From an uncultured delta proteobacterium (lineage in GTDB: Bacteria; Desulfobacterota; Binatia; UBA9968), in assembly GCA_963771465.1 (NCBI GenBank), contig CAVYTU010000013.1, forward strand, positions 384,001-448,000: a stretch of 64,000 bases of DNA. Reading direction: 5' to 3'. This document shows positions 17,944-62,022 of the stretch, piece by piece. Every line of letters starts with the position of its first letter. The stretch's first letter is position 1. The notes under the pieces are model-generated. The model was not told the DNA's origin. It saw only the letters and a list, made by a program, of their open reading frames with translations, and made no database searches. A program made the translations under genes and the position numbers.

Positions 17944-18014
17944 ATTTCACGATCCTCCAGTTTGTATTGTAGTTCGGCCAATCTGCTTTTCTACTCGCGC
18001 GCACAAAAAAAACG

Positions 18015-18029
18015 GCAAGAGATGTGCCA
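18015..18029 (-). promoter_or_regulatory. sigma54 promoter
   Basis: TGGCAC-ATCTC-TTGC. Confidence 0.75.
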
Positions 18030-18203
18030 GACATACTGATCTCGTGGAAAAAAACGCGGAATTTTCCAAGGAATTGTTCCATCTTAGTGATGTTCACACC
18101 AGATTTTTGGCATACCTGAGAATAAATCTTAGTAAGTTTCTTACCGATGATAATGGGGAGGTTTCGACACTGTTGATGTTTGAGTCGTGGGTTGGAATGA
18201 TTC

Positions 18204-18218
18204 AGGCACAAATATTGC
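18204..18218 (+). promoter_or_regulatory. sigma54 promoter
   Basis: AGGCAC-AAATA-TTGC. Confidence 0.7.
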
Positions 18219-18268
18219 GGCTGTACGGATTCAGGTGCAGCAAATGACGTTTCAGAAAGGAGGTGTTT

Positions 18269-18754
18269 ATGGCGATAGTAAAAAGGCTAAAAGATAATCT
18301 CGACGAGGGGAATATCTCCTACGAAGTTTACAATCATGCGCTCGCGTATACGGCGCAAGAGATCGCCGCCAAACAGCATGTCTCGGGCAACGAACTGGCC
18401 AAGGTGGTAATGCTCGAAGCGGACGATCAGCTGATTATGGGCGTCATTCGCGGCAACGACAAGGTCGATTTGCATACGGTTGAGGACAGCCTCGGCGTCC
18501 ACCGCGTTCGGCTGGCGACGGAAGCTGAGTTTATCGCTCGCTTTCCGGAATGCGAGATCGGCGCCATGCCGCCGTTCGGAAATTTATTCGGTGTGAAAGT
18601 ATTTGTCGATCCGGCGCTGGAAAAGGATGAATATATTTTCTTTAACGCGGGTAATCACGTGCAGACGGTGCGACTCAAATACAAAGATTTTGCACGATTG
18701 GCGCAGCCAGCGGTCGTCCGACTGGCCGGCGAGCGGAGCAAATTCGGCGCATAG
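18269..18754 (+). CDS. YbaK/EbsC aminoacyl-tRNA deacylase family
   Basis: TAQEIA, LAKVV, CEIGAMPPFG, FNAGNH. Confidence 0.88.
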   Translation: MAIVKRLKDNLDEGNISYEVYNHALAYTAQEIAAKQHVSGNELAKVVMLEADDQLIMGVIRGNDKVDLHTVEDSLGVHRVRLATEAEFIARFPECEIGAMPPFGNLFGVKVFVDPALEKDEYIFFNAGNHVQTVRLKYKDFARLAQPAVVRLAGERSKFGA

Positions 18755-18771
18755 CGAGAAGGAGATGGATC

Positions 18772-19293
18772 ATGAACTTGGATTTCAAGCGGATACTTTG
18801 CCCGGTGGATATGTCGGAATTTTCGCTCGATGCGTTGCGCTTGGCGGTCAAGTTGGCCGAATGTAGTGATGCCACGCTGGATATATTGCACGTGATTCAC
18901 AACCCCTTTGACGAGTTGTATATGACCGCAATTGCGGAGACTAATCCGGCGCTGCTCGACGCCTACGCTTCAGAACCGCAAAAGCGGGCAAAAATTTTGC
19001 GGGCGACCGAAGAGCACTCGGAGGTATTACTCAAACAGTTCTGCCACGATTGGGTAAAGCATCATTCAAAGTTGCGCTACCACGTGCGCAGCGGCGATCC
19101 TTTCGAACTGATTCTCGACGGCGCCCAGAATTTCCGGACCGATCTGATCGTGTTGGCGACTCATGGCCGCACCGGCATCAAGCGCCTGGTGATCGGCAAC
19201 GTCGCCGAGAAGGTGGTGCGTCACGCGCCGTGCCCGGTGCTGACGGTCAAAGCAAAAGCGCCAAGCGAAGACGCGGCCTCTAAGGAGGAATGA
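18772..19293 (+). CDS. Universal stress protein
   Basis: RILCPVDMSEFS; DLIVLATHGRTG..IGNVAEKVVRHAPCPVL. Confidence 0.92.
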   Translation: MNLDFKRILCPVDMSEFSLDALRLAVKLAECSDATLDILHVIHNPFDELYMTAIAETNPALLDAYASEPQKRAKILRATEEHSEVLLKQFCHDWVKHHSKLRYHVRSGDPFELILDGAQNFRTDLIVLATHGRTGIKRLVIGNVAEKVVRHAPCPVLTVKAKAPSEDAASKEE

Positions 19294-20180
19294 TGGACGA
19301 GTCCAAAGCGTCCGAGAGCGAGGCGTTGATCAGAATCTTGCATCCGTCGGATTTTACCCCGGCGAGTTTCATCGCCTTCGCTCACGCGCTCAAGATCGCC
19401 CTACAATCCAACGCCGAATTGGAAATCGTCCACGTCGAACCGCACACAATCGGCAGCGACAAAGATGTTCACTGGAGTGAGTTCCCTGGCGTGCGCGAGA
19501 CTTTGGCACGTTGGCGTGTATTGCCCACCGATGCGGCGATCGATGAAGTCGCCCAGCTCGGTTTGCGCGTCAAAAAGATTCTCAATGCAGAGCGCGATGC
19601 GCTGGCGGCGATGACCCAATACTGTGAATCACATCCACCGGACTTGCTGGTGCTGGCGACCCACCAACGGGAAGGGTTTGAGCGCTGGCTGCATAAACCG
19701 GTGGCCGAGCCACTGGCGCGCCGCTCGCGTGCGCTGACACTATTCGTGCCGAGCCACGGGCAAGGATTTATCTCTCCGGCCGACGGCACGGTGACACTCA
19801 AGCGCATTCTCATTCCCGTCGATCATATCCCCAATGCGCAAGCGGCGATCGAAGAGACGTTTTTTCTCGCCGCGGGATTGGGCTGCAGTGATGTCGAGTT
19901 CAAATTGCTGCATGTCGGCACGGAGCGCGGCATGCCAACACTGTTCCTGCCGCATCACCCTGGTTTTAAGTGGGATGAGCGCATGCTCAATGGCGACGCG
20001 GTGGAAACGATTCTCCGAGAGACGACAATTTGGCAGCCGGATTTGATCGCGTTGACGACTCAGGGTCACAGGGATTTTCTCGACGCCCTGCGCGGCAGCA
20101 CGACGGAGCGAGTTTTGCGCGGCGCCCATTGCCCGGTATTGGCCGTGCCGGCGGATGAGTCGGCGCGGGCGCAAGCTTGA
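19290..20180 (+). CDS. Tandem-domain universal stress protein
   Basis: ILHPSDF and ILIPVD starts; GSTTERVLRGAHCPVL. Confidence 0.88.
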   Translation: MMDESKASESEALIRILHPSDFTPASFIAFAHALKIALQSNAELEIVHVEPHTIGSDKDVHWSEFPGVRETLARWRVLPTDAAIDEVAQLGLRVKKILNAERDALAAMTQYCESHPPDLLVLATHQREGFERWLHKPVAEPLARRSRALTLFVPSHGQGFISPADGTVTLKRILIPVDHIPNAQAAIEETFFLAAGLGCSDVEFKLLHVGTERGMPTLFLPHHPGFKWDERMLNGDAVETILRETTIWQPDLIALTTQGHRDFLDALRGSTTERVLRGAHCPVLAVPADESARAQA

Positions 20181-29605: not shown

Positions 29606-30724
29606 CTAATGGATGAATTCGAGAGCGATAGAAAACGCGATCAGCAGGACGATTACCCATTCCAACACTTCCATGCGCCGGTTCGATGCCTGGTCGGAAA
29701 TCTTTTCATAGATGCTTTCTAACGTCTGCAATTTTCGTAGGATGCTGCCGTCCCATTCGTCCAAATGGAAGCGCCGGTTGACCAGGCGATAGACACGGGC
29801 GAGGTATTGGTCGCCCAAAAGTTTCAGCGTGTTGTTAACGCCTTCAAAGAGTATCGCATTGTCGACCTGCAACTCGGCGACGCTGCGCAGGTCGGCGCCG
29901 TAGTAGCCCAATAGGCGCGGCAGGCTGAAAGTACGCTTCGAGAGCGTCTCGTAGGCTTGGTCCAGGGCGCGATCGAGTTTTTGATCGAGATAGCGCATTT
30001 CCAAAAGCTCGACATTGGCATACTCGAGAACCGCACGAACATCGTCACCTTCTCGATCGATGAGCACGGCCGCGTTCCAATCGACGATGGTTAGGTCTTC
30101 CAAACCGTAGGAAATATGTGCAGCGAACGCGTCAGCCACTTCTTGCTCCGACAGCAGGCGCTGCTCAGCGCGCATAACCCGCGCGATCTCCTGACCGTAC
30201 TCGGCGGGGAAACGGTTTAGGTCGACCGCTTCGTCAAACGATGAGATATGAAAGACGACATAGTCTTCAACAACCGGCGAGGAATGAGCTTGCGTTGCCG
30301 CGTCGCCGATGGCCTGGAGTAACTGGCCGACCCGCAGCCGCGAGTCGGCCAGCAATGGCTCATTATCGTAAAGTTCTTCGCTGAGCGTGAGTAATGCTGC
30401 AAATGGCCCGCTGATGTCGACCGTATAAGTCACTGCGACAGCGCCGAAATCGTAAAATAGAAGATCGACGCTAGGCCGCGTGAGAAAGATGCCAAGCTTG
30501 AGCGCTTCAGTATCTTGGGTGAGTCTCAATGGCGCCGGCTGATACTCAAAATAACTGGGAGCCGGCCGCTTGTGCCGCAACGTCGAACGCTCGGTTGCTT
30601 CATGGATGCGTGCTCCCGCCCTATCGAGGTCGATCGAGCGCGCCGCGTCGTAGGCGAACGTGACGTGACACAGACCGCTTTGGATCCTGAGTGGCAGGAG
30701 TTTTTCCAGCGGCGCTGAAGTCAC
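29606..30724 (-). CDS. RMD1/DUF155-like protein with C-terminal TM (start uncertain)
   Basis: YDFGAV, VDWNAA, ELLEMRYLD, GDQYLARVY, MEVLEWVIVLLIAF. Confidence 0.7.
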   Translation of the reverse strand: MTSAPLEKLLPLRIQSGLCHVTFAYDAARSIDLDRAGARIHEATERSTLRHKRPAPSYFEYQPAPLRLTQDTEALKLGIFLTRPSVDLLFYDFGAVAVTYTVDISGPFAALLTLSEELYDNEPLLADSRLRVGQLLQAIGDAATQAHSSPVVEDYVVFHISSFDEAVDLNRFPAEYGQEIARVMRAEQRLLSEQEVADAFAAHISYGLEDLTIVDWNAAVLIDREGDDVRAVLEYANVELLEMRYLDQKLDRALDQAYETLSKRTFSLPRLLGYYGADLRSVAELQVDNAILFEGVNNTLKLLGDQYLARVYRLVNRRFHLDEWDGSILRKLQTLESIYEKISDQASNRRMEVLEWVIVLLIAFSIALEFIH

Positions 30725-30806
30725 GGCAACGACTCTGTTAAGCGGCGAATGCTCATTCGCGGCGCGACGCTCACGTAATCGAGGCGCCGATGGATTTCCC
30801 TTAGCA

Positions 30807-31103
30807 CTAATGCATCTCGGGATTCTCTCCCTGCTGCTCGGTATGAGAACCCCTCTCGCCGGCCGCATCTGTCGTCCCGCAGTATTTGCCGATGATCTCG
30901 CGCCCTTTTCCCACTAAGCCTTCGGTACTCTCATGCAGCTTAGCGCCGGCCTGGTTCAAATACTCCATACCCTTGGCACTGCGCTCGCGAATATATTCGC
31001 GCGACTCCTTACGCGAGAGTAAAACAGATAGCGCACCGCCGATAGCGCCGATGGCCACCGCAATAACTAGGTAGGGCAATTTTGTCGAAGCGTTGTTACT
31101 CAT
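30807..31103 (-). CDS. YtxH-domain protein
   Basis: RBS aggagg; TM GAIGGALSVLLS followed by KESREYIRE. Confidence 0.7.
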   Translation of the reverse strand: MSNNASTKLPYLVIAVAIGAIGGALSVLLSRKESREYIRERSAKGMEYLNQAGAKLHESTEGLVGKGREIIGKYCGTTDAAGERGSHTEQQGENPEMH

Positions 31104-31166
31104 AGCTACCTCCTGAATGGTTTTGACTATCACATTTCGTTTCATTCACTGTTTTATTGAAAGTCC

Positions 31167-31181
31167 GCAAAAGTTATGCCA
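31167..31181 (-). promoter_or_regulatory. sigma54 promoter
   Basis: TGGCAT-AACTT-TTGC. Confidence 0.75.
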
Positions 31182-31349
31182 AAAATTCCATAAATTTGCG
31201 CTCTCGTGGAACTCCGCTGGTGCATTGTCAACCAGCCGGTTCGCAATTCTGAGACGATTCGCCGCTATGTTTTCGCAGCGACGCGATTGATTTTTGTCTT
31301 GGGATTTCAATCAGACTCAGATCAAGCGGAAAATGTAGGAACTTTTTCA

Positions 31350-31364
31350 TGGTTCGCTGTTTGC
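31350..31364 (+). promoter_or_regulatory. sigma54 promoter
   Basis: TGGTTC-GCTGT-TTGC. Confidence 0.55.
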
Positions 31365-31407: not shown

Positions 31408-31896
31408 ATGGATTCTCAAAAAAGTTGGTCAGATTGGTGGCGCCAGTTCCTTGGACTGTCGCACAATAGCCACCAAGAAGTTGTGAAAATCCTCCAAGAC
31501 CGCTACGCCGACGAGATCCGCCACGCACGACGCTATGCCCAACATGCGGGAAAGATGCAGTATCCGCAGTTCCGAGAAAGATTATTGGCAATTGCGGCGG
31601 ACGAAGCGCGCCATGCGGAATGGCTCGCCAATAAGATCACGCTTTTCGGCGGCAAGCTGCCGCATGTGCTCGAGGTCCACGCGACGGATAAGAATAGCTG
31701 GCAATATTTGCTCGACGATGTCGATGAAGAACTTCCCGGATTGGATGAAATGTTCGAGACGATGCAAAGCCTACGAGACGAGTCGCCGGACGTCGCTAGG
31801 ATGTTGGAGCGCATCTACGAAGACGGCGTAAAACACCGGGCGGAAATTCGGGAAATGCTGATGCGCAGCGATCCGCAGGCGCGAATGACTGAGTGA
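31408..31896 (+). CDS. Ferritin-like domain protein
   Basis: E..H..Y, DEARH, KITLFGG, EDGVKH four-helix pattern. Confidence 0.8.
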   Translation: MDSQKSWSDWWRQFLGLSHNSHQEVVKILQDRYADEIRHARRYAQHAGKMQYPQFRERLLAIAADEARHAEWLANKITLFGGKLPHVLEVHATDKNSWQYLLDDVDEELPGLDEMFETMQSLRDESPDVARMLERIYEDGVKHRAEIREMLMRSDPQARMTE

Positions 31897-32107
31897 GAAA
31901 ATGGGACAACCGACACCACGCCGCGAGAGAATTAGCCGCAATTCTCGCAAAAACGAATTAGATTTACCGCGGTAGTCCGCTCAGTTGCTCTGATTTGCAA
32001 AAGCGCGACGGATTAGTTCAGATTTTTTCACTTTCGCGAATCGTGGCTCCCTTTACACCGACCACGCAGCGATCGAAAAAATTCGCCTGCCGCGCTGAAG
32101 TTTCAAT

Positions 32108-32218
32108 TTAGCTTTTGTTTTCGCCGCCATCTCGTCCCTTGGATACGAGTATAACATGCATGATCAGGGTCAACCCGATCAGCAGCACTAGGTAAAAGAG
32201 TTCGGTTTCGTTTACCAT
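32108..32218 (-). CDS. 36-aa single-TM small protein (below the ORF-track cutoff)
   Basis: MVNETELFYLVLLIGLTLIMHVILVSKGRDGGENKS; RBS GGAGGTGA; has its own sigma54 box. Confidence 0.65.
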   Translation of the reverse strand: MVNETELFYLVLLIGLTLIMHVILVSKGRDGGENKS

Positions 32219-32272: not shown

Positions 32273-32287
32273 GCAACGAACGTGCCA
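32273..32287 (-). promoter_or_regulatory. sigma54 promoter
   Basis: TGGCAC-GTTCG-TTGC. Confidence 0.75.
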
Positions 32288-32397
32288 CAGAAACGCGACG
32301 GCGAGTGGCGGAGGTCGAATCAACACCCGACGAGAACAGCGGGGGCCGCATGGTGCACGCGTTTGTATTCGTTTTTCAACAGTGAGAAAAAGGCTGC

Positions 32398-34761
32398 GTG
32401 ACGGATTCGACGGTAGCTAATGACAGCGTTACGGCGAAATTCTTCGCCGGCCCGCGTCACAAGGCTTTCGCTGCTGCCTTGATCAGTCTTTTCCTGCTCA
32501 CAGGGATCTGGTGGGCCGCGCACCTCTGGTACCGCAATGCGATGCTCGCTGAAGCGCGCGGCGACGTGTTGGCTGAACTCGACCCCTTTGGCAACGCGCT
32601 AACGATCGATTTACGCCGCCGTTTCGATTTAATTTATGGACTTAGGGCGTGGGTAGGTACCCACCCGCTGATAACCGATCTTAGCGAGAACTTCGAAGCT
32701 TTCGCACGCCAGCTAACCGAAGACGTCACCGGCATTCGCAACCTAAACGTCGCGCCAGGTGGCACGGTCCGTTTTGTTTATCCGCGGGCGGGCAATGAAG
32801 CGAGTGTCAGCCGCGAGCTTTTCAACGACTCCCGGGTTGAGGTTCGCGAAGACATCGCACGGGCCGTAAAGTCGCGCAAAATGGTGATCAGCGGACCTTT
32901 TGAGGTTGGCGGCTTTGGCACCGTGGCTCGCCTGGCGATCTTTCGTGATGAGAGTTTCTGGGGTTTGATCAACGTCGCAATCGACATTCCGCCGGTGATG
33001 GCAGAGGCAAGAATCGCCTCGCAAAAAAACTTGCAAATGGCTCTGAGAGATTCGCGCGGCCGGGTCTTTTTCGGAGCGCCGACCGTTTTTAATTCTGCCC
33101 CGGTGATCCATCGTGTGGAATTGCCGGATGGCCATTGGGAGCTTGCCGCGATTCCGGTCATGGGATGGAACGGCGCTATTCGCCGTGATTTGTGGATATT
33201 CGATATTGGCGCCCTTGCGATCACACTGTTGTTGAGCGCGGTCGCTTATCTGATAGCCTTTCGCGACGCGCGCTTGTACGCCCGAGTCGGGGAGCGCACG
33301 GGCTCGCTCAATGCAGAACTATCGCATCGAAACATAATTGAAACTCAACTCAGGGCGGCTGAGGATCGTTACCGCTCTTTGGTTGAGCTCAATCCTGACG
33401 CCGTGCTGGTCAATTTTAACCGGAAGATTGTTTTCGCCAACGATGCGGCGCTGCGATTGTTCGGCGGGAAGTTGCACGATCTCCTAGGCCGTTCGCCGTT
33501 GGATTTTGTCCTGCCAGACGAGCGAGCAGCAGTAGAGCAACAGTACCAGCGGGCTTTGGAATCCGGCGCACCTACCCAACCGGATATTCAGCGCAGAGTG
33601 CGTTTGGATGGTTCCTTTGTTGATGTGGAGACGGTCGGCGCGCCGTTGGCTTGGGAAGGCGGCGCCGCGGTGCAGATCATCATGCGCGATGTCACCGAGC
33701 AGCGAAAGGCAGAGCGCTCGCTGCATATCCTGATCGAAACTACCCAGGATGCCGTTATATCCATCGATCGCCGGGCGCAGATCGTCATGTTCAATGCCGC
33801 GGCGGAGCGAGTCTTCGGCTACAACAGGGCGGAAGTCGCCGGCGAGAAAGTTAACATGCTCATGGCCCAACCGTTCGCGACCGAGCATGACGGCTACATC
33901 GCGCGCTATGAAGCGACCGGCGAACCGCGCGCCATCGGCCGCATCCGCACGGTCAGCGCGCGGCGTAAAAACGGCGAAATTTTTCCCATCGAGCTGTCGG
34001 TGACGCAGATCGCAACGGGGGAAGAGATAAATTACGCGGCGTTCATCCGTGACATTTCGGAAAAAGTGAAGCTGCAACAACAAGCCGTCGAGAGCGAAAG
34101 GCTTGCCACCATCGGTACCATGGCGGCGAAGTTCGGCCACGAGCTCGGTAACCCGTTGAACGGCATGTCATTGACGATCCAACTTTTGGAACAGCGCTTG
34201 AGAAAACAGGCGGCGACGTCGGATGAGCAAGTTGCGTCGACATTGTCGCGACTGAAGAGCGAGATCTCTCGTTTGAATACTCTGCTGCAAGATTTTCGTT
34301 CTTTATCGCGGAAAGAAAATTACAATTTTCAGCCCATCAGCGTAGCCGCGTTGGTCGGCGAGGCGATCGAGATCGAGCTGCCGCGTTATGTCGAGCAAGG
34401 CGTAAACGTCGAGTCTAGCTTCACGACCGATCTGCCGCCGATCACCGTGGACATCGACAAAATGAAGCAGGTGATTTTGAATCTCGCTAAGAATGCAATC
34501 GAGGCCATGCCACATGGGGGCAAACTGTGGTTCAAAGGAGTGGCCACCAATGGCGCGGTGACCCTAGACATCTCAGACACGGGCGCGGGTATTCCACCAG
34601 GGGTCGATATCTTCGAGCCGTTCTTTACGACCAAGTCGTTCGGCACGGGCATCGGCATGACCATCGTGCGTCAGATTATCGCGGCTCATGGCGGCAGCGT
34701 AAGTTACCGCAGTGAACCGGGGCAAGGCACGACTTTTTCTATCAAATTACCGATAGGCTGA
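32398..34761 (+). CDS. CHASE-PAS-PAS sensor histidine kinase with FixL-like heme PAS
   Basis: Two TMs flanking a CHASE-like domain; second PAS has EHDGYIARY..TGEPRAIGRIR; HELGNPL, NLAKNA, DTGAG, FFTTK..GTGIG. Confidence 0.88.
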   Translation: MTDSTVANDSVTAKFFAGPRHKAFAAALISLFLLTGIWWAAHLWYRNAMLAEARGDVLAELDPFGNALTIDLRRRFDLIYGLRAWVGTHPLITDLSENFEAFARQLTEDVTGIRNLNVAPGGTVRFVYPRAGNEASVSRELFNDSRVEVREDIARAVKSRKMVISGPFEVGGFGTVARLAIFRDESFWGLINVAIDIPPVMAEARIASQKNLQMALRDSRGRVFFGAPTVFNSAPVIHRVELPDGHWELAAIPVMGWNGAIRRDLWIFDIGALAITLLLSAVAYLIAFRDARLYARVGERTGSLNAELSHRNIIETQLRAAEDRYRSLVELNPDAVLVNFNRKIVFANDAALRLFGGKLHDLLGRSPLDFVLPDERAAVEQQYQRALESGAPTQPDIQRRVRLDGSFVDVETVGAPLAWEGGAAVQIIMRDVTEQRKAERSLHILIETTQDAVISIDRRAQIVMFNAAAERVFGYNRAEVAGEKVNMLMAQPFATEHDGYIARYEATGEPRAIGRIRTVSARRKNGEIFPIELSVTQIATGEEINYAAFIRDISEKVKLQQQAVESERLATIGTMAAKFGHELGNPLNGMSLTIQLLEQRLRKQAATSDEQVASTLSRLKSEISRLNTLLQDFRSLSRKENYNFQPISVAALVGEAIEIELPRYVEQGVNVESSFTTDLPPITVDIDKMKQVILNLAKNAIEAMPHGGKLWFKGVATNGAVTLDISDTGAGIPPGVDIFEPFFTTKSFGTGIGMTIVRQIIAAHGGSVSYRSEPGQGTTFSIKLPIG

Positions 34762-34783: not shown

Positions 34784-34798
34784 TGGCCTATGAATTGC
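34784..34798 (+). promoter_or_regulatory. sigma54 promoter
   Basis: TGGCCT-ATGAA-TTGC upstream of the regulator gene. Confidence 0.6.
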
Positions 34799-34899
34799 TG
34801 ATTCAAGTAAACATGAAAGGATCGTGCGAATTCACGCCAGTCGATTTGCATCGATGAGAAAAACCCATATCGATTTCGCACTTGTGGGAAAATAATTCA

Positions 34900-36258
34900 A
34901 TGGGTCCAAGTGGCAATATACTAGTCGTCGAGGACCAAGAGAGCGCCCGGGATAGTCTCGTCGATCTGCTGCGCGGTGAAGGCTACGATGTCCACGAGGC
35001 GGCGGATGGCAATCAAGGGATAGCCAAGATCAATCAACTCGATCTCGATGTCGTGTTGACCGATCTGATGATGCCGGGAGCGGACGGCCTCGCAGTGCTC
35101 AAACATGTCAGCGAGTTCTCGCCGCAGACTTTAGTCATCCTCATGACCGCTCATGCATCGGTGGAGACCGCTATCGAGGCGATTCGCGCGGGCGCTCAAG
35201 ACTATCTCTTAAAGCCGCTGGTGTTCGAAGAGGTGTTGCGCAAGATTCAAACTCTCATGAGCCATCGACAGATGGCTTGGGAAAACCAGCTGCTTAGGCG
35301 CGAAGTCAGCGGCCATTTCGCGCCGGACCGCCCGCTGGGGCGAAGTCCTTCGATGCAGGACATCGTCAAGATGATCATGAAAGTAGCGCCGACGCCGACG
35401 ACGGTTCTCATCAGCGGCGAGAGCGGTGTCGGCAAGGAAGTGGTCGCGCGGACGATTCACGCAAACAGCTCGGGCAAGGACAATGTGTTCCTGCCGGTAA
35501 ATTGCAGCGCGATCCCGGAGAATCTTTTGGAGAGCCAGTTGTTTGGCCACATGAAAGGTTCGTTCACTGGCGCGGTGAACTCGCAAGAAGGCTTGTTCCA
35601 ACGCGCCCGCGGCGGCACGATCTTTCTCGACGAGATCGGCGAGATGCCGCTGAGCTTGCAGCCCAAGCTGCTGCGCGTCCTTGAGGAAAAAACCGTGTTG
35701 CCGGTCGGTTCGACGACACCGGTAAAAGTAAATGTGCGCATTCTCGCCGCTTCCAATCGTGACCTCAAAGCGGAAGTCGAAGCGGGACGCTTCAGCGAAG
35801 ATCTCTACTATCGGCTCTGTGTTTTCGAGATCGACATCCCGCCGCTGCGCAAGCGGCTCGAAGACTTGCCGGCGCTGGTGGAGCATCTGATCCACCGGCA
35901 TAATCTCGAGATGAAAACGAGCTACAAAGGCGTCGATAGCGCGACCATGCGGATTCTCATGTCGCTTCCGTGGAAGGGCAATATCCGGGAGCTCGACAAT
36001 GTGCTCGAGCGCGCCATGATTCTCGGTAACGGTGAATGGATCGCGCCGCCCGATCTGCCGGGCCATGGCTCGGCGGCTGCCGATGGCGAATATGTTGCCG
36101 AGGACAATCTGACTAAGGCCATCGAGCTCTACGAGAAAACTCACATCGAACGGACCCTCGGGAAAACCGCCGGCGACAAGATCCGCGCCGCCGAACTGCT
36201 GGGGCTCAGTCTATCGACGCTCTATCGGAAGATCGAGAAACTGGAGATCGAGGGATAG
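34900..36258 (+). CDS. NtrC-family sigma54-dependent response regulator
   Basis: Receiver domain (ED, D, KP), GESGVGKE, ESQLFGHMKGSFTGA, FLDEIGE, WKGNIREL, Fis-type HTH. Confidence 0.95.
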   Translation: MGPSGNILVVEDQESARDSLVDLLRGEGYDVHEAADGNQGIAKINQLDLDVVLTDLMMPGADGLAVLKHVSEFSPQTLVILMTAHASVETAIEAIRAGAQDYLLKPLVFEEVLRKIQTLMSHRQMAWENQLLRREVSGHFAPDRPLGRSPSMQDIVKMIMKVAPTPTTVLISGESGVGKEVVARTIHANSSGKDNVFLPVNCSAIPENLLESQLFGHMKGSFTGAVNSQEGLFQRARGGTIFLDEIGEMPLSLQPKLLRVLEEKTVLPVGSTTPVKVNVRILAASNRDLKAEVEAGRFSEDLYYRLCVFEIDIPPLRKRLEDLPALVEHLIHRHNLEMKTSYKGVDSATMRILMSLPWKGNIRELDNVLERAMILGNGEWIAPPDLPGHGSAAADGEYVAEDNLTKAIELYEKTHIERTLGKTAGDKIRAAELLGLSLSTLYRKIEKLEIEG

Positions 36259-37791: not shown

Positions 37792-37840
37792 ACTCGCATG
37801 ATTGCGAGAAAACGCCAGCGGGTTTTTCAATTCTACGAAT
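37792..37840. promoter_or_regulatory. Tandem enhancer-like palindromes
   Basis: ACTCGCA-TGAT-TGCGAGA (37792) and TTTTTCA-ATTC-TACGAAT (37823), 31 bp apart. Confidence 0.55.
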
Positions 37841-37878: not shown

Positions 37879-37893
37879 TGGCACAGCCATTGC
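37879..37893 (+). promoter_or_regulatory. sigma54 promoter
   Basis: TGGCAC-AGCCA-TTGC. Confidence 0.8.
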
Positions 37894-41118: not shown

Positions 41119-41120
41119 GG

Positions 41121-42291: not shown

Positions 42292-42456
42292 GCCAGCACT
42301 TCCGAATAAAGAATCAACCGCAAAGGTCGCAAAATTAAGAAAGCGATTCTGAATTTGGCACGGGTCAATCGGATTGGGCGGCGACATTACCGCGTTGGTA
42401 GATGAAAAAAGATACCCTAATGCGACAACACGGCGCCGCCGACCGCGACTTGGTCT

Positions 42457-43034: not shown

Positions 43035-43056
43035 AGTCTCTCGATTGGCGCGGTGG

Positions 43057-43514: not shown

Positions 43515-43529
43515 GCAATTTAAGGGCCT
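43515..43529 (-). promoter_or_regulatory. sigma54 promoter
   Basis: AGGCCC-TTAAA-TTGC. Confidence 0.6.
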
Positions 43530-43708
43530 GCGACAAAGCATTGTTTCGCCTAAGGCACGACCCGAAGTGCCGACTTTTTCGCATTGCTGGGAAGTTTTCA
43601 AGTGCTACTTGGCGGATTTGCAAAGTTTCGTCAAGTTGCCCCTAACGCTGCTTTTGCGAACTACGGATTAACTGGGAGAAGTTAAAACCAAATGTCCAAT
43701 GGCTCAGT

Positions 43709-43723
43709 TGGCACTGAAGCTGC
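43709..43723 (+). promoter_or_regulatory. sigma54 promoter
   Basis: TGGCAC-TGAAG-CTGC. Confidence 0.65.
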
Positions 43724-43841
43724 GTCTTATGCGGATTGAAGTCTCACGGGGGATAAAAAGTCCATGACTGACGAGGACGAGTTTTGCGAGACCATGAAAC
43801 TGGTCGAGCGCGCCATTTTTACATTTTTGGAGGACGGTTGG

Positions 43842-44339
43842 ATGCCCGGAAAAATTTACCGCTATCTTGCCGACGATCACCGGCGCCTCGACGCCTTGCT
43901 CGAGCGCGCTATGTCCGACCCGGAGAATGTCGACGCCGCGGCTTATGCCCAATTCCGCTCGGGTTTGCTCAAGCACATTGGAATGGAGGAGAAGGTTCTT
44001 CTTCCTGCAGCGCAAAAGCTCCGCGGCGGCGAACCACTTCCCGTCGCGCCCAGAGTGCGCCTCGATCACGGCGCTTTGGTTTCGCTGCTGGTCCCATCGC
44101 CGACGGTGCCGGTAGTTGCGGCGATTCGCGCGATTCTCAAGGTGCATAACCCGATCGAAGAAGATCGCGGCGGGATGTACGATCAATGCGAGGAACTGGC
44201 TGGAGCTCAAGTGGATCAGATATTGCGTCGGCTCCGGAATTTTCCTGAGGTGAAAGTCTTGCCGCATGTCGACAGCGCGTTCGTTATGGAAGCCACGCGC
44301 CGAGCGTTGGCGCGAGCTGGCTACGATTTGGAAGTGTGA
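43842..44339 (+). CDS. Hemerythrin-domain protein
   Basis: DHRRLD, HIGMEE, DH, HNPIEE; RBS ggagga. Confidence 0.8.
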   Translation: MPGKIYRYLADDHRRLDALLERAMSDPENVDAAAYAQFRSGLLKHIGMEEKVLLPAAQKLRGGEPLPVAPRVRLDHGALVSLLVPSPTVPVVAAIRAILKVHNPIEEDRGGMYDQCEELAGAQVDQILRRLRNFPEVKVLPHVDSAFVMEATRRALARAGYDLEV

Positions 44340-44446: not shown

Positions 44447-44780
44447 CTATTTTCCCGCCTCAGAATCATAGGTGTAAAGCATGCGCGGCAGCTCGGCTTC
44501 CGCTTCAGTACGGCGCGGGTTCGGATGGCGCAACGCCTGCCAACAGAGCCAGAGCAGAGGTAGAGCTCCGCCTACTATGAATAGAGCGTCGCCCGGCAGG
44601 CGGGACCATTCGAGAACTTTGACCCACGGTAAACCGATAAAGGCCAAACTCCGCGCATACCAGTAGCCTATATCGACGGCATAATAGAGCTGGACAATGC
44701 CGAGCGGAAAAAGATTGGCAAAAGCCATCCACGCTAAACCCATATTCAGAGACCAGAAAGATATTTTTGCGGCGCGATAC
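44447..44780 (-). pseudogene. norB: C-terminal remnant of a quinol-dependent nitric oxide reductase (qNor)
   Basis: SFWSLNMGL..LFPLG..Q..GYWYARS..EWSRLPGD; only ~110 residues, no proper start. Confidence 0.75.
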
Positions 44781-44886
44781 CTAAGGCATTGACAGTAACC
44801 GTTCGTGTGCAAGATTCACCGATTCTTACCACGATCGGGTTCCCTTTGTCTTCTTCCGGATTGGTTGTGAAAATTGAGAATGAGTT

Positions 44887-47460
<2,574 letters not shown>

Positions 47461-47463
47461 GGA

Positions 47464-47757
47464 TCAGTGGCGTGGCAGCTTGTTTGCGTGGCCACTTAGA
47501 AATTCGCCAACCAGCGTCGCGAGATCGGGCTGACTCATCTCTTCGATGTCATAGCGCACGCATTCAGCGCCGCTCAGTTCGGCGGGATAGCAGCGCCCGG
47601 CGATGGCGGGAATCTGCGCGGCGGTGAACGCCACGACTTCATAGGCCGGATCGTCGCGGAAGCAGACGTTGAAATTGTGAAAGTCTCGCCCCGACGCGCC
47701 CATGATGAGCACGCGCTCGCGGTTCTTTGCCGTGTCTTGTTGATCTTGCTTTACCAC
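47464..47757 (-). pseudogene. Internally deleted cyclic 2,3-diphosphoglycerate synthase-like GTPase
   Basis: N-terminal IMGASGRDFHNFN..AFTAAQIP..YP.ELSG fused directly to C-terminal VRYDIEE..P.L; 97 aa, far shorter than the family's several hundred residues. Confidence 0.7.
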
Positions 47758-47805: not shown

Positions 47806-47820
47806 GCAAGATATGTGCCT
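47806..47820 (-). promoter_or_regulatory. sigma54 promoter
   Basis: AGGCAC-ATATC-TTGC. Confidence 0.7.
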
Positions 47821-48002
47821 GCTACGACGTGCCAATGCGGAGGAAATTGACTGGCTTGCGAGTGGTTTTTCGCAAATCTGCTATGGGCCGGTTTTCCCCT
47901 TCGCAACACTAGGAATGAACCGCACATGCGCGATTGAGATGATTAGGTCAGTCGGTTGCTCTGTCGGTTGATTTGCGCCGTGTCGATGACTATTCAATTT
48001 GT

Positions 48003-49691: not shown

Positions 49692-49699
49692 TGATGCAG

Positions 49700-60030: not shown

Positions 60031-60366
60031 ATGAAGTTCACGTACACAAACTGTGATGCTGAAATCAAAGCCATCTTTGCTGCACGGCCTCGCAAAGACT
60101 TTACACCCGTCGTTACAATAACTGGCTCCCAAGGTTTGAGAACGTTGATTCTCACCTCGCTGTATTTCTCAACCCGCGAGCAAGCCGAGCTTTACGGTAT
60201 GGTACTAACTCGGAAGTGGATTAAAGAGAACTCCGCCGAGATGCGGCGTAAAAGGACATTGGTCGAGGCAGCCGACCCGGCAGCAAACGTAAGAGCCAAA
60301 GCGCGCCGCAAGGATCGAGCCCCATCGCAAAACGCCATGATAGCCGCGCGCCCACCTTCCATCTAA
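60031..60366 (+). CDS. Hypothetical protein
   Basis: F.TREQAELYG...RKWI pattern; ATG at 60031. Confidence 0.45.
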   Translation: MKFTYTNCDAEIKAIFAARPRKDFTPVVTITGSQGLRTLILTSLYFSTREQAELYGMVLTRKWIKENSAEMRRKRTLVEAADPAANVRAKARRKDRAPSQNAMIAARPPSI

Positions 60367-60418
60367 CTACTACCCAGGCCAGACCTGAGCATCAGGCGAT
60401 AGGGAAATGAAATGAGGC

Positions 60419-60817
60419 TTAGATTTCCCCAAGCTGTTTTTTGACGATGCATTCATTACAGATCGTGGAATTATCCGGCGCGTCTTGGGTCGACACGTAA
60501 TCGTCCATCGGCCACTGAGAGCAATCCGAACAGAGGTGCCAAGTATCGCCAGTTCTGGTTTTTCGATATTCGCCGCTGATTACCGAGCTTAGCGCTTTCT
60601 CTAAGTAAGGAGCAGCGAGGGGATAGAATCGGTTTGCGCGTTCAAGGATGAGGTTCACATCGTCGATTCGGCAGAACACCTCTACGATGGAGTAATTATC
60701 AGTGAGCCTTCGCTCGATTATAGAATTTTTCAGGACGGCGTATCCACGGCTGGATAAAGGGAACCTACCCAGAAAACCTAGATAGGTATCTAACGGCATC
60801 TTTACCAGAACCGCCAT
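60419..60817 (-). CDS. MAVLVKMP-family protein fused to a WHxCxxC..CxEC domain
   Basis: Paralogs at 59139, 63712 and 8441. Confidence 0.75.
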   Translation of the reverse strand: MAVLVKMPLDTYLGFLGRFPLSSRGYAVLKNSIIERRLTDNYSIVEVFCRIDDVNLILERANRFYPLAAPYLEKALSSVISGEYRKTRTGDTWHLCSDCSQWPMDDYVSTQDAPDNSTICNECIVKKQLGEI

Positions 60818-60993
60818 AACCAAAAACCATATTTAGGTCACGTTTGGAGAGCTTTTAATTTCCAGCTCGCCCGCGGACGCATTTGCCGAGCTGCTCATAA
60901 AAAAAAGTGTTCATTACGCAGGAGAAGTGCTTGTAGAACTCGCCGAAGAGAGCGAGTTGCATACAAGCCCTTCTCAAGCATCAACACACTAGG

Positions 60994-61548
60994 CTAGGGT
61001 TTAGGTTGGCTCGGTGCTCCGCCCCATGTAAAACCGATGCCTAAATTGATCACATGATTGCCACTGCTGGAGTTGTTGTCGATGGCTTCAATACGATTGA
61101 AAAACCATTCATAACGATAACCGATATTCAAAAACGTGCGGTCGTGCACGAAGAACTTGGCGCCCACTTGCGGTCCTAGGGTGCCGGTAGCGTCGCGGTC
61201 GTTCCACACCAAACCCATGAACCCACCCACGTATGGAACAATGATGTCGGTTACGTGAAAATGATAATTGAAGAAAGGCGTGGTGCTAGCAAGCCAGAAA
61301 TCGCGACTATCGTCGATAAAATTGTAGTTCAACCCTTGTCGTATTCCGATCTGCCAACCCGGCGTTAAGTAGTAACCATAGCCCAAATCGAGGTTCAGAC
61401 TTCCACTGTCGGAACCCTGCGCATGAAACAAACCCCCCGAAAGCTGCCACTCGCTCGCGCCGTCAGTGGGCGCGGCAATCGCTGGTGCGTCACTTAACAA
61501 CCACCCGGTCAATATTGCCGTCGCAAATAATCTCACCACGTTTCGCAT
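60994..61548 (-). CDS. Outer-membrane beta-barrel protein
   Basis: Signal peptide; alternating aromatic strands, VPYVGG, NIGYRY, NLGIGF; RBS aggagg. Confidence 0.75.
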   Translation of the reverse strand: MRNVVRLFATAILTGWLLSDAPAIAAPTDGASEWQLSGGLFHAQGSDSGSLNLDLGYGYYLTPGWQIGIRQGLNYNFIDDSRDFWLASTTPFFNYHFHVTDIIVPYVGGFMGLVWNDRDATGTLGPQVGAKFFVHDRTFLNIGYRYEWFFNRIEAIDNNSSSGNHVINLGIGFTWGGAPSQPKP

Positions 61549-61631
61549 ATGGAAAAACCTCCTACTAACAATTTTTTGTTCCAGTTCGTTCACGGACTCC
61601 ACAGTTAGTTTCGTCCTAGCCGAGAACATGA

Positions 61632-61646
61632 GCAATTTAATGGCCA
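61632..61646 (-). promoter_or_regulatory. sigma54 promoter
   Basis: TGGCCA-TTAAA-TTGC. Confidence 0.65.
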
Positions 61647-62022
61647 GTCGCCATAAAAAACGTTTTGCCCGCCGCTAAATTCTACTCTTCAGACTCGTCC
61701 CCGCAGAACTCGACCGCTACCCAGGTGGCGACAATTACGATCACTAGAGTCCAAAGTGAAATGTTCCATTTCAATTGCCTCCAGTACAACTCATCATCGT
61801 AAGATTCATCCCAGTGCATTGCGGGCACATTACTAACTACCCTAAGTCGTACTACGCCTGCTCTTCCCACCACCGCCAGACAAAGAAGCCGCTATGGACG
61901 ATCAATGGTAGCGCTCGCTGACCTTCGAAAGTTGCCGCGTTAATTGATAGGCAATGTCGTTTACGGATGACGCAAAACTAGCGCCATTAATTAGGCATTA
62001 GAAAAAATTATCTAATAAGATG

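What the first reader, a model, noticed from the sequence alone, without database searches (positions are those of the whole stretch)
17950..61650. Window-wide sigma54 regulon with a readable tandem enhancer (TTTCGCA-N4-TGCGAAA, 30-32 bp spacing)
Seen: correctly oriented GG-N10-GC boxes just upstream of genes at 18015, 18204, 31167, 31350, 32273, 34784, 37879, 41601, 41771, 43515, 43709, 47806, 53118, 56624 (GT variant), 58804 and 61632, plus 2453 and a weak one at 16732. Many have a pair of degenerate palindromes close by, with starts at 18106/18137, 31239/31271, 31993/32024, 34844/34874, 37792/37823, 41675/41705, 43577/43608, 47868/47899, 53209/53241 and 56533/56565; every pair is 30-32 bp apart. 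Established: NtrC-type activators bind tandem dyads about three helical turns apart. Inference: the local activator (34900) recognises this dyad and drives the region. Caveat: sites were picked by eye and some are quite degenerate.
Basis: partly seen in the sequence, partly recalled or inferred. Interest (0 to 1): 0.85.

Follow-up and report, generated by a model that had tools for sequence, protein, structure and literature searches.

The report
Oxygen-sensor-linked sigma54 stress regulon with tandem enhancers
A 30-kb stretch of this soil bacterium's genome holds about a dozen stress and dormancy-type operons that share one readable enhancer, probably bound by the local NtrC-type activator whose partner kinase looks like the oxygen sensor FixL; the wiring is new, the logic is textbook.

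Summary
The core observation is real. The same motif shows a sharp 31-bp spacing peak around the activator's orthologues in seven other genomes. Pairs 53209 and 56533 fail. Twelve of 18 -24/-12 boxes are supported, two are plausible sigma54 promoters without this enhancer, and four are not supported. The regulon spans 17.9-48 kb, not the whole window, and has at least two further operons on other contigs.

The assignment to the activator at 34900 (REC-AAA+-HTH) rests on three points. Its own gene carries the strongest pair in 8 of 8 genomes. The hibernation-factor promoter has no dyads in four genus genomes that lack the orthologue. A 60% paralogue sits in a second sigma54 island with a different half-site.

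New here: the adjacent kinase has a FixL-type haem-PAS domain, so low oxygen is the likely signal. The activator's own enhancer lies downstream of a conserved weak promoter. Targets are Usp, CBS, hibernation factor, hemerythrin, cytochrome c and a P-type ATPase, resembling the NmpR and DosR regulons. All evidence is computational.

The parts
17320..17943 (-). hibernation-promoting factor fused to a cold-shock domain; target gene
   Evidence: Pfam Ribosomal_S30AE 1.9e-13 and CSD 1.1e-9. The orthologue in G015 and L002 is also preceded by a pair and a promoter.
18015..18029 (-). -24/-12 promoter TGGCACATCTCTTGC for the hibernation factor
   Evidence: 0 mismatches, 16.9 bits. It lies 76 bp from the dyad pair. 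The identical core is found in L002 and in the second G012 copy.
18106..18154 (.). tandem dyads (starts 18106 and 18137), shared by two divergent promoters
   Evidence: 27.3 bits, top 0.03% of genome windows.
18204..18218 (+). -24/-12 promoter AGGCACAAATATTGC
   Evidence: 1 mismatch, 49 bp from the pair.
18263..20180 (+). operon: YbaK-like deacylase domain, Usp, tandem Usp
   Evidence: Pfam tRNA_edit and Usp.
29606..31145 (-). two genes with no family match (112 aa and 420 aa)
   Evidence: No Pfam or NCBIfam hit. They lie downstream of box 31167.
31167..31181 (-). -24/-12 promoter TGGCATAACTTTTGC
   Evidence: 1 mismatch, 15.2 bits, 57 bp from the pair.
31239..31288 (.). tandem dyads (31239 and 31271), divergent use
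   Evidence: 25.0 bits.
31350..31364 (+). -24/-12 promoter TGGTTCGCTGTTTGC
   Evidence: 2 mismatches, 61 bp from the pair. Like boxes stand at 59-61 bp before the rubrerythrin-like orthologue in G014, G003 and G020.
31408..31896 (+). rubrerythrin/ferritin-like protein
   Evidence: Pfam Rubrerythrin 9e-8.
31993..32041 (.). tandem dyads (31993 and 32024) with no outward promoter; they lie about 230 bp downstream of promoter 32273
   Evidence: 29.7 bits. No box with <=2 mismatches within 220 bp on either side.
32108..32218 (-). 36-aa hydrophobic ORF behind promoter 32273
   Evidence: the ORF listing. A GGAGG sequence precedes the ATG in the printed sequence.
32273..32287 (-). -24/-12 promoter TGGCACGTTCGTTGC
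   Evidence: 0 mismatches, 21.4 bits; 2 sites in the genome score as high.
32372..32389 (.). single strong dyad, 84 bp upstream of promoter 32273 and 8 bp before the kinase start codon
   Evidence: 20.2 bits, no partner at 29-33 bp.
32398..34761 (+). sensor kinase: CHASE, PAS, FixL-type haem-PAS, HisKA, HATPase
   Evidence: Pfam. PAS2 matches solved FixL haem domains at E 7.5e-27, with EHDGY aligned to EHDGY/RHDSY. The domain is kept next to the activator in 6 of 7 other genomes.
34784..34798 (+). weak conserved -24/-12 box TGGCCTATGAATTGC before the activator gene
   Evidence: 9.7 bits alone. TGGC-N7-TTGC is kept in 8 of 8 genomes, 44-46 bp before the dyads in G000, G003, G015, G018, G020 and G008, 37 bp in L002, not measured in G014.
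34844..34891 (.). strongest tandem dyads (34844 and 34874), between that box and the ATG at 34900
   Evidence: 37.8 bits. The pair before the orthologue scores 26.4-42.4 bits in the 7 other genomes.
34900..36258 (+). NtrC-family activator: REC, AAA+ (loop GSFTGA), HTH_8
   Evidence: Pfam Sigma54_activat 2.9e-68, Response_reg 5.9e-29, HTH_8 1.2e-10. Translation. Best solved match is an NtrC-family regulator, 4l4u.
37792..37840 (.). tandem dyads (37792 and 37823)
   Evidence: 29.5 bits.
37879..37893 (+). -24/-12 promoter TGGCACAGCCATTGC
   Evidence: 0 mismatches, 19.8 bits, 38 bp from the pair.
37950..40739 (+). operon: tandem Usp, tandem Usp, Usp, 153-aa unknown
   Evidence: Pfam Usp 4.9e-40, 5.1e-45 and 6e-33.
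40696..41570 (-). two CBS-pair proteins
   Evidence: Pfam CBS 1.7e-30 and 3.2e-32.
41601..41615 (-). -24/-12 promoter TGGCACGGACAGTGC
   Evidence: 1 mismatch, 59 bp from the pair.
41675..41722 (.). tandem dyads (41675 and 41705), divergent use
   Evidence: 33.1 bits.
41771..41785 (+). -24/-12 promoter GGGCATGTTTCTTGC
   Evidence: 2 mismatches, 13.9 bits, 48 bp from the pair.
41836..42291 (+). Usp
   Evidence: Pfam Usp 4.1e-29.
42365..43464 (-). cytochrome c and a 217-aa unknown
   Evidence: Pfam Cytochrome_CBB3 and Cytochrom_C.
43515..43529 (-). weak -24/-12 box AGGCCCTTAAATTGC
   Evidence: 6.3 bits, chance level on its own. It is counted only for its place, 47 bp from the pair.
43577..43625 (.). 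tandem dyads (43577 and 43608), divergent use
   Evidence: 31.7 bits.
43709..43723 (+). -24/-12 promoter TGGCACTGAAGCTGC
   Evidence: 1 mismatch, 83 bp from the pair.
43764..44339 (+). hemerythrin-domain protein
   Evidence: Pfam Hemerythrin 3.3e-6.
44447..47757 (-). operon: 97-aa unknown, P2-type cation ATPase, 121-aa unknown
   Evidence: Pfam E1-E2_ATPase and Cation_ATPase_N/C. The best NCBIfam match is the PMR1-type Ca ATPase, below its cut-off.
47806..47820 (-). -24/-12 promoter AGGCACATATCTTGC
   Evidence: 1 mismatch, 13.1 bits, 47 bp from the pair.
47868..47916 (.). tandem dyads (47868 and 47899)
   Evidence: 27.0 bits. No convincing box faces the phosphorylase gene at 47973.

Best explanation
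This is a two-component, sigma54-dependent stress regulon.

The membrane kinase at 32398-34761 carries a periplasmic CHASE domain, a PAS domain and a second PAS domain of the FixL haem-binding type. I infer that, as in FixL, the kinase is active when oxygen is scarce and phosphorylates the NtrC-family activator at 34900-36258.

I infer that dimers of the activator bind two 18-bp dyads (consensus TTTCGCA-N4-TGCGAAA). The dyad centres are 30-32 bp apart, about three helical turns, so both lie on one face of the DNA. The dimers would assemble into the AAA+ ring that opens sigma54 closed complexes at -24/-12 promoters. Those promoters start 38-83 bp from the nearer dyad in this window.

Four of the eight enhancers sit between divergent promoters and would serve both.

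Shown by sequence: the motif, its spacing, its place next to the promoters, its conservation across genomes, and the domain make-up of the proteins.
Inferred: who binds the dyads, the signal, and the direction of regulation.

The targets are six Usp genes in the window and two more on another contig, two CBS-pair proteins, a hibernation factor fused to a cold-shock domain, hemerythrin- and rubrerythrin-like proteins, a cytochrome c, a P2-type cation ATPase and several unknowns. This is a low-energy or hypoxia survival set.

The activator's own gene is wired differently. A weak conserved -24/-12 box lies 45 bp upstream of the strongest dyad pair, which ends 8 bp before the ATG. There the enhancer sits downstream of the promoter. 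It would give positive feedback, and perhaps a block to elongation at high occupancy.
For: Motif and spacing. All 8 pairs lie in the top 0.05% of genome windows. In 259 kb around the orthologues in 7 other genomes, 40 of 68 site pairs at >=8 bits are 29-32 bp apart, 27 of them at exactly 31. At >=9 bits the count is 30 of 52, against 0.04 in locally shuffled DNA.

Link to promoters. 32 of 44 pairs in 8 genomes have an outward box (<=2 mismatches, GG and GC fixed) within 110 bp. From, about 0.06 such boxes are expected per 110 nt. Eight of the 12 exceptions are the pair at the activator gene.

Phasing. The 45 enhancer-promoter distances cluster near 15, 28, 38, 48, 58-61, 70 and 79 bp. The Rayleigh statistic peaks at a period of 10.5-10.75 bp (R 0.61).

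Independent loci. On other contigs of the same genome, C7:13382 has a 32.3-bit pair, a box 49 bp on, and then a DoxX, unknown, tandem Usp, Usp operon. C17:176016 has a pair, a box and a PaaA-like ferritin-fold gene.

Assignment to the activator.

Activator and sigma factor. REC, AAA+ with loop GSFTGA and HTH_8 are present; rpoN is present.

Sensor. PAS2 matches solved FixL haem domains at E 7.5e-27, followed by E. coli DosP. The His of EHDGY is invariant in 7 sequences from 6 other genomes.

Known parallel. NmpR of Myxococcus xanthus binds tandem dyads before sigma54 promoters of a CBS protein, a Usp, a P-type ATPase and a hemerythrin, and responds to hypoxia (PMC11841059; abstract, passages and section 22 read).
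Against: No experiment of any kind supports this: no binding assay, no mapped transcription start and no expression data. RNA-library contigs gave no usable ends.

Several boxes are weak on their own. 43515 scores 6.3 bits, 34784 scores 9.7 and 43709 scores 10.1; hundreds to thousands of sites in the genome score as well.

Within the window alone, phasing is not significant (n = 10, p about 0.08). The 45 distances include orthologous promoters, so the pooled figure overstates the case.

Pair 31993/32024 has no outward promoter.

In sister genomes a receiver-less paralogue shares the motif, so the dyad is not exclusive to the orthologue of this activator.

The kinase also has a CHASE domain and a first PAS domain, so oxygen need not be the only signal or the main one. 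That the aligned His is the haem ligand is recalled, not tested.

HSP20, the phosphorylase, the SPFH protein and the 179-aa cytochrome c-like gene lie inside or beside the cluster but have no convincing box of their own.
Confidence: 0.75

Rival explanations
1. The dyads and the sigma54 promoters are real, but the protein that reads the dyads in this genome is not the activator at 34900. It could be another of the 20 or more enhancer-binding proteins, or a separate repressor or architectural protein. The activator would then be a target, not the master.
For: The genome holds 35 matches to the sigma54-interaction domain, about 22 of them full length. HTH_8 recognition helices are much alike across the family. 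A receiver-less paralogue is linked to the same motif in G012 and G015.
Against: G000 has no orthologue of the receiver-less form; the best matches to it are the window's own activator (58%) and the 60% paralogue. The 60% paralogue has its own island with a different half-site and no pair of at least 18 bits in 30 kb. Eight of 15 genome-wide pairs lie within 17 kb of this activator. Four genomes without the orthologue have no dyads at the hibernation-factor promoter.
Confidence: 0.1
2. The regulon and its activator are as described, but the signal is not low oxygen. It could be a periplasmic ligand sensed by the CHASE domain, or NO, CO or redox state sensed by the haem-PAS domain. The set would then be a general starvation or envelope response.
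For: The kinase has a CHASE domain (Pfam 1.3e-5) and an extra PAS domain ahead of the FixL-like one. All NCBIfam matches, FixL included, fall far below their cut-offs: 239 bits against 850. From recall, haem-PAS sensors can respond to gases other than oxygen.
Against: The best solved matches are oxygen sensors, FixL and then DosP. The targets include hemerythrin, cytochrome c and rubrerythrin-like proteins. They mirror the hypoxia regulons of NmpR and DevR/DosR.
Confidence: 0.25
3. The dyad pairs are chance products of T/A-rich intergenic DNA picked out by eye, and only the sigma54 boxes are real.
For: The loose consensus search is only mildly enriched, 14 against 6.3. Single sites at >=14 bits occur 137 times in the genome, about what a 16-bit motif gives by chance.
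Against: There is a spacing peak at 31 bp in seven other genomes, against 0.04 in shuffles. The pair scores lie far beyond the genome null. The half-site is the top k-mer in an unbiased count. Out-of-window pairs stand in front of further Usp genes.
Confidence: 0.02

Closest known systems
NtrC at glnAp2 of enteric bacteria (recalled, not looked up)
   Same: A response regulator with REC, AAA+ and Fis-type HTH domains. Two dyad sites about three helical turns apart lie upstream of a -24/-12 promoter, and the regulator controls its own synthesis.
   Different: The half-site differs: TTTCGCA-N4-TGCGAAA here. The targets are stress genes, not nitrogen assimilation genes. The kinase is a haem-PAS type, not NtrB. 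The enhancers sit closer to the promoters, and half of them serve two divergent promoters. NCBIfam scores for ntrC and AtoC are below their cut-offs.
NmpRSTU of Myxococcus xanthus (PMC11841059)
   Same: An NtrC-like regulator binds tandem dyads before sigma54 promoters. Its regulon includes a CBS protein, a Usp, a P-type ATPase and a hemerythrin. It is autoregulated, has a haem-based sensor and is induced by hypoxia.
   Different: The NmpR consensus is GCGCA-N5-TGCGC with 14-15 nt between sites. The sensor is a protoglobin kinase that feeds a multi-step relay. No hibernation factor is reported and only one Usp. Here there is a single FixL-type kinase and eight Usp genes. The best Myxococcota matches to this activator are 40-44% identical, the ordinary level within the family, so orthology is not indicated. 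It was not tested directly.
DevR/DosR dormancy regulon of Mycobacterium tuberculosis (PMC3177182)
   Same: Haem kinases signal low oxygen. Binding sites are 18 bp, in tandem and helically phased, and some serve divergent promoters. Targets listed in that paper's Table 1 include Rv1996, Rv2005c, Rv2623, Rv2626c, ctpF, Rv0079 and hspX. By recall these are Usp proteins, a CBS protein, a P-type ATPase, a ribosome-associated factor and an HSP20.
   Different: DevR is a NarL-type regulator that acts at sigma70-type promoters from about -40. There is no AAA+ domain and no sigma54.
FixL-FixJ of rhizobia
   Same: The kinase's second PAS domain matches solved FixL haem domains at E 7.5e-27 over 113-123 residues.
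   Different: The partner here is an NtrC-type sigma54 activator, not a FixJ (LuxR-type) regulator. The kinase also has a CHASE domain. In one full-text search I found no paper describing this pairing.
FlbD and the ftr elements of Caulobacter flagellar genes
   Same: These are natural sigma54 promoters activated from enhancers placed downstream of the transcription start. I saw only the titles, in a reference list: Gober and Shapiro 1992; Mullin and Newton 1993.
   Different: Those are flagellar genes. Here the downstream enhancer lies in the leader of the activator's own gene, at a spacing fixed across the genomes examined.

Membership tests
[quoted passage not shown] | N-terminal receiver domain | tested here: met
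   Pfam Response_reg 5.9e-29, residues 13-122.
[quoted passage not shown] | AAA+ sigma54-interaction domain with the GAFTGA loop | tested here: met
   Pfam Sigma54_activat 2.9e-68. The loop reads GSFTGA in the translation. That this variant is functional is an assumption.
[quoted passage not shown] | C-terminal Fis-type helix-turn-helix | tested here: met
   Pfam HTH_8 1.2e-10, residues 414-454.
[quoted passage not shown] | sigma54 encoded in the genome | tested here: met
   Sigma54_DBD 4e-63 in a 494-aa open frame on contig C14.
[quoted passage not shown] | Binds the proposed enhancer and activates transcription | not testable with these tools
   There is only indirect evidence from location, conservation and presence or absence across genomes.
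sigma54-dependent promoter | GG and GC doublets 10 nt apart within TGGCAC-N5-TTGC, facing a gene | tested here: met
   Met by all 12 supported boxes: 3 with 0, 5 with 1 and 4 with 2 core mismatches.
sigma54-dependent promoter | Transcription start about 12 nt downstream of the GC; dependence on rpoN | not testable with these tools
   The RNA-library runs are held only as contigs and show no ends.
NtrC-type tandem enhancer | Two dyad-symmetric sites on one face of the helix | tested here: met
   Spacing is 30-32 bp in 8 of 8 window pairs. The mode is 31 bp in seven other genomes.
NtrC-type tandem enhancer | Located upstream of the promoter it serves | tested here: inconclusive
   Met for 6 of 8 window pairs. 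Pair 34844 lies downstream of its conserved box. Pair 31993 has no outward box.
FixL-type haem-PAS oxygen-sensor kinase | PAS domain homologous to the FixL haem domain, with the conserved His | tested here: met
   E 7.5e-27 to chain 1d06_A and 1.1e-26 to 1dp6_A; EHDGY aligns with EHDGY and RHDSY. The His is invariant in 7 sequences from 6 other genomes. The role of that His as haem ligand is recalled.
FixL-type haem-PAS oxygen-sensor kinase | Binds haem; kinase activity switched by oxygen | not testable with these tools
   This needs purified protein.
FixL-type haem-PAS oxygen-sensor kinase | Equivalog-level match to FixL; FixJ-type partner | tested here: not met
   The NCBIfam FixL model scores 239 bits against a cut-off of 850. 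The adjacent regulator is NtrC-type. So it is FixL-like in one domain and is not a FixL.
NmpR regulon (M. xanthus) | Consensus GCGCA-N5-TGCGC, sites 14-15 nt apart | tested here: not met
   Here the consensus is TTTCGCA-N4-TGCGAAA with 12-14 nt between 18-bp sites, as against the paper's figures.
NmpR regulon (M. xanthus) | Protoglobin kinase and hybrid-kinase relay | tested here: not met
   The adjacent kinase is CHASE-PAS-PAS with no receiver domain. I did not search the genome for a relay elsewhere.

The most novel reading that the evidence does not exclude
In this uncultured soil lineage sigma54 may do the work that RpoS, SigB or EcfG do elsewhere. Two paralogous NtrC-type activators, 60% identical, would run two separate stress programmes.

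Both use enhancers of identical geometry: an 18-bp dyad with a GCA-N4-TGC core, in tandem 31-32 bp apart. The half-sites differ at the outer positions: TTTCGCA for a FixL-linked hypoxia or dormancy set (Usp, CBS, hibernation factor), and TGTCCCA/TGTCGCA for a general-stress set (CsbD, Dps, BON, YflT).

Sister species add a receiver-less third paralogue that shares the first motif. If this holds, it is a natural case of duplication and insulation of whole sigma54 regulons that can be read straight from the DNA.
Probability: 0.45. Interest if true: 0.65.

Novelty: new member of a known kind. Interest (0 to 1): 0.48.

Why it matters
It gives a complete and testable regulatory model for an uncultured soil bacterium: sensor, activator, enhancer sequence, promoter set and target genes.

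It also suggests that hypoxia or dormancy programmes built from Usp, CBS, hibernation-factor and P-type ATPase genes have been placed under quite different regulators in different phyla: DosR, NmpR, and here a FixL-type kinase with a sigma54 activator.

The strict 31-bp spacing, the helical phasing to the promoter and the sister regulon with an altered half-site make this a good natural system for studying how enhancer-binding proteins keep their regulons apart.

The regulatory logic itself is textbook NtrC, so a specialist would find it tidy rather than surprising.

Tried and rejected
- I first guessed a type VI secretion cluster from ORF sizes (a 2955-aa and an 857-aa ORF). Pfam shows a GH94 glucan synthase-like protein and a P-type ATPase instead.
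- RNA evidence: six runs on record as RNA hold part of the stretch, and I laid four of them. All are kept as contigs. One covers 29 of 30 bins evenly and bridges a divergent intergenic region, so it may hold DNA. The three sediment runs cover mainly 37.7-41.6 kb. No starts, ends or strands can be read, so I drew no conclusion on expression or transcription starts.
- A rigid IUPAC pattern for counting pairs in remote genomes was too noisy: 15 matches at <=2 mismatches genome-wide, 5 of them in the window. I dropped it and used the hibernation-factor promoter comparison instead.
- A sigma70-type promoter overlapping the dyads before the activator gene: the consensus scan found none on the + strand.
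- I looked for boxes serving the phosphorylase, SPFH, 179-aa cytochrome c-like and HSP20 genes and found nothing convincing.
- Earlier findings of this scan: nothing on record.
- Taxonomy: the only named close record is a MAG labelled Candidatus Binatia bacterium, with the activator 81% identical. I did not verify the lineage of the window's genome.
- One search failed on a mis-set start coordinate. I corrected it.

Full report
WHAT THE WINDOW IS. The window is G000:C13:384001-448000 of a 6.9-Mb, 19-contig assembly with 56% G+C. The genome encodes sigma54 and has 35 matches to the sigma54-interaction domain, about 22 of them full length. The closest named public record is a soil MAG labelled Candidatus Binatia bacterium, whose activator is 81% identical. 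I did not verify the lineage.

GENES. Between 17.3 and 47.8 kb, Pfam finds the following:
- a hibernation-promoting factor fused to a cold-shock domain;
- a YbaK-like gene followed by Usp and tandem-Usp genes;
- a rubrerythrin-like protein;
- a CHASE-PAS-PAS histidine kinase, followed by a REC/AAA+/HTH_8 activator;
- an SPFH protein;
- three more Usp genes in a row;
- two CBS-pair proteins;
- another Usp;
- a cytochrome c;
- a hemerythrin-domain protein;
- a P2-type cation ATPase;
- an alpha-glucan phosphorylase.
A 2955-aa GH94 protein splits the cluster. Beyond 48 kb the genes are mixed and mostly small.

THE DYADS ARE REAL.
- At >=10 bits per site, all eight window pairs are 30-32 bp apart. 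Outside the window the only spacing with a small excess is 31-32 bp, with 5 pairs.
- To escape circularity I scanned 259 kb around the activator's orthologues in six same-genus genomes and the named MAG. At >=8 bits, 40 of 68 site pairs lying 10-80 bp apart are 29-32 bp apart, 27 of them at exactly 31. At >=9 bits the figure is 30 of 52, against 0.04 in locally shuffled DNA.
- A second PWM made only from those foreign sites (60 sites, 15.6 bits) was run over the whole G000 genome.
- Against 27,621 250-bp windows, whose 99.9th percentile is 18.9 bits, the eight score 25.0-37.8.
- An unbiased k-mer count over eight intergenic regions puts the half-site first among 6-mers and among 7-mers.

THE PROMOTERS.
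- Loose matching to TGGCAC-N5-TTGC is not enriched. With GG and GC fixed and <=1 mismatch, the window has 16 boxes against 3.9 expected.
- Across 44 dyad pairs in eight genomes, 32 have an outward-facing box within 110 bp.
- In the window, four pairs lie between divergent promoters: 18015/18204, 31167/31350, 41601/41771 and 43515/43709. Two pairs serve one promoter each: 37879 and 47806.
- The 45 enhancer-promoter distances fall into classes about one helical turn apart (15, 28, 38, 48, 58-61, 70, 79). The Rayleigh statistic peaks at 10.5-10.75 bp with R 0.61.
- Many of these promoters are orthologous, so that figure overstates the case. The window alone (n = 10) gives p of about 0.08.
- Some boxes are weak alone (43515, 43709, 34784) and are credited only for their position or conservation.
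- Boxes 58804 and 2453 look like good sigma54 promoters without this enhancer. Boxes 53118, 56624, 61632 and 16730 are not supported.

WHO BINDS.
- The strongest pair in every one of eight genomes abuts the activator's start codon.
- The hibernation-factor gene offers a natural test. In G000, G015 and L002 it is preceded by a pair and a promoter. Four same-genus genomes (G004, G007, G019, G022) have no orthologue at 79% identity or above, and there the best pair upstream of the same gene scores below zero.
- G012 also has no orthologue. One of its two copies has a 26.2-bit pair and the identical perfect promoter. It lies about 4 kb from a receiver-less AAA+/HTH paralogue, 58% identical, whose recognition helix (ISLSSLYRKIEEL) nearly matches the window's (LSLSTLYRKIEKL).
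- G000 has no such receiver-less gene.
- G000 does have a 60% paralogue at C13:153626, with helix LSRSSLYRKIEAL. It sits in a second sigma54 hot spot: 33 boxes in 120-260 kb, and no pair of the window's type in the 30 kb searched.
- Upstream of those boxes the enriched words are TGGGAC/GTCCCA (17 seen, 1.5 expected). They form dyads like TGTCCCA-N4-TGCGACA, again in tandem at 31-32 bp.
- With <=1 mismatch, the TGTC-type dyad occurs 7 times in that 100-kb island and 0 times in the window's 32 kb. The TTTC-type occurs 4 times in the window part and once in the island.
- The first genes behind those boxes include CsbD, a Dps-like ferritin, two BON proteins, YflT, BrkB and a CBS protein, which is a general-stress set.

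THE SENSOR. The kinase's second PAS domain matches solved FixL haem domains at E 7.5e-27 and 1.1e-26, and then E. coli DosP. The segment EHDGYIARY aligns with EHDGYLQRY and RHDSYISRY. By recall, that His is the haem ligand. The domain and its His are kept in kinases next to the activator in six of seven other genomes; it was not found in the stretch of G008 that I fetched. NCBIfam's FixL model scores well below its cut-off. The protein is therefore FixL-like in one domain and is not a FixL, and its partner is not FixJ-type.

THE ACTIVATOR'S OWN PROMOTER. It lies 44-46 bp before the first dyad in G000, G003, G015, G018, G020 and G008 and 37 bp in L002. In G014 the script measured from a different, nearer box, so its gap was not obtained. 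With a start about 12 nt after the GC, the two dyads would lie at about +34 to +81 of a leader of about 90 nt. This is an enhancer downstream of its promoter. I cannot tell whether it activates, represses or both. A single 20-bit dyad also lies 8 bp before the kinase's start codon and 84 bp upstream of the perfect divergent promoter 32273, which precedes a 36-aa hydrophobic ORF.

REACH OF THE REGULON.
- In the window I count twelve transcription units with a supported box.
- Outside it, C7:13382 has a 32.3-bit pair and a box 49 bp on, preceding DoxX, an unknown, a tandem Usp and a Usp. C17:176016 precedes a PaaA-like ferritin-fold protein.
- The other five genome-wide pairs (C4, C11, C16, C19, and C15 at the kdpF/kdpA junction) have no box in the expected place or were not followed up.
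- In relatives the same enhancer precedes Usp, CBS, rubrerythrin-like and cytochrome c-like genes, and in G015 an HSP20 gene. The window's own HSP20 has none.

COMPARISON WITH WHAT IS KNOWN.
- The architecture is that of NtrC at glnAp2 (recalled).
- The nearest described system by function is NmpRSTU of Myxococcus xanthus (PMC11841059; abstract, passages and section 22 read). It has tandem GCGCA-N5-TGCGC sites before sigma54 promoters of a CBS protein, a Usp, a P-type ATPase with cbb3 oxidase, and hemN-hemerythrin. It is induced by hypoxia and has a protoglobin sensor. The motif, the sensor and the relay all differ here.
- The DevR/DosR regulon (PMC3177182; abstract and passages including Table 1) shares tandem, phased 18-bp boxes, divergent promoters and a similar gene set. 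It uses a NarL-type regulator.
- A 2025 survey notes that predicted sigma54 promoters are enriched at UspA and CBS COGs in Planctomycetia (PMC12316311; two passages read).
- Downstream sigma54 enhancers are known from Caulobacter flagellar genes (titles seen in a reference list).
- Full-text searches turned up no description of a FixL-type kinase paired with a sigma54 activator, nor of this motif. Four searches of an open-access library do not prove that none is in print.

VERDICT. The finding is real, and cleaner than its author feared. Its reach is narrower within the window and wider across the genome than claimed. It is a new member of the NtrC-type regulon family with some uncommon features: a FixL-like sensor, a conserved downstream auto-enhancer, and a sister regulon with an altered half-site. 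Nothing has been tested at the bench.

Noticed in passing
G000 contig C13:145,000-245,000 (outside the window; loci L126-L130): A second, larger sigma54 island. It has 33 boxes with <=1 mismatch and a different upstream dyad (like TGTCCCA-N4-TGCGACA), also in tandem at 31-32 bp. It includes a 60% paralogue of the activator at C13:153626, preceded by its own box and upstream dyads. The first genes behind the boxes include CsbD, a Dps-like ferritin, two BON proteins, YflT, BrkB, PLD, a CBS protein and a glycosyltransferase.
   Followed up: partly
L120 (G012:C100:86000-104000) and L121 (G015:C5:216000-234000): A receiver-less AAA+/HTH paralogue of the activator (314 aa in G012, 58% identical) is surrounded by 4 (G012) and 3 (G015) dyad pairs of the window's type, with sigma54 boxes nearby. 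Matches of this form appear in 13 of the 40 other genomes searched; those in G007 and G022 contain stop codons. It was not found in G000.
   Followed up: partly
window 13325-13351 and 16988-17082: A tRNA-Sec gene lies on the minus strand at 16988-17082. A 27-nt direct repeat of its 3' end (25 of 27 identical) lies 3.66 kb away. The two bracket a SCO1/SenC-like, HEAT-repeat and tyrosinase gene cluster. This could be the scar of an insertion at the tRNA; no integrase is seen.
   Followed up: partly
G000 contig C15:225131-225445 (locus L125): A 27-bit dyad pair of the window's type lies about 250-300 bp downstream of a sigma54 box (TGGCATGTCGCTTGC), between small ORFs that look like kdpF and the start of a kdpA-like gene. 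Another enhancer-binding protein gene lies about 3 kb away. The gene names come from my reading of the printed sequence, not from a family search.
   Followed up: no
window 58804-58818 (-) and 2453-2467 (-): Two good sigma54 boxes without this enhancer. 58804 (17.1 bits) lies 35 bp before a 108-aa gene with a weak Metal_resist match. 2453 (perfect core) lies 135 bp before a 662-aa SH3-domain protein, and a single 16.8-bit dyad lies 175 bp upstream at 2642.
   Followed up: partly
window 20312-29179 (-): A 2955-aa protein with GH94 supersandwich and catalytic domains plus a glucoamylase-like domain, of the cyclic beta-1,2-glucan synthase type. It sits in the middle of the regulon. I found no box or dyad of its own.
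   Followed up: no
window 37260-37799 (-): The 179-aa ORF is probably mis-started. A signal-peptide-like MKLAILMASG... begins 37 codons in, after a GGAG sequence. It is a paralogue of the cytochrome c at 43057, and its homologues in G014, G015 and G008 are preceded by a pair and a box. Here only a poor box (TGGTCTCTCAATGGC) is present.
   Followed up: partly
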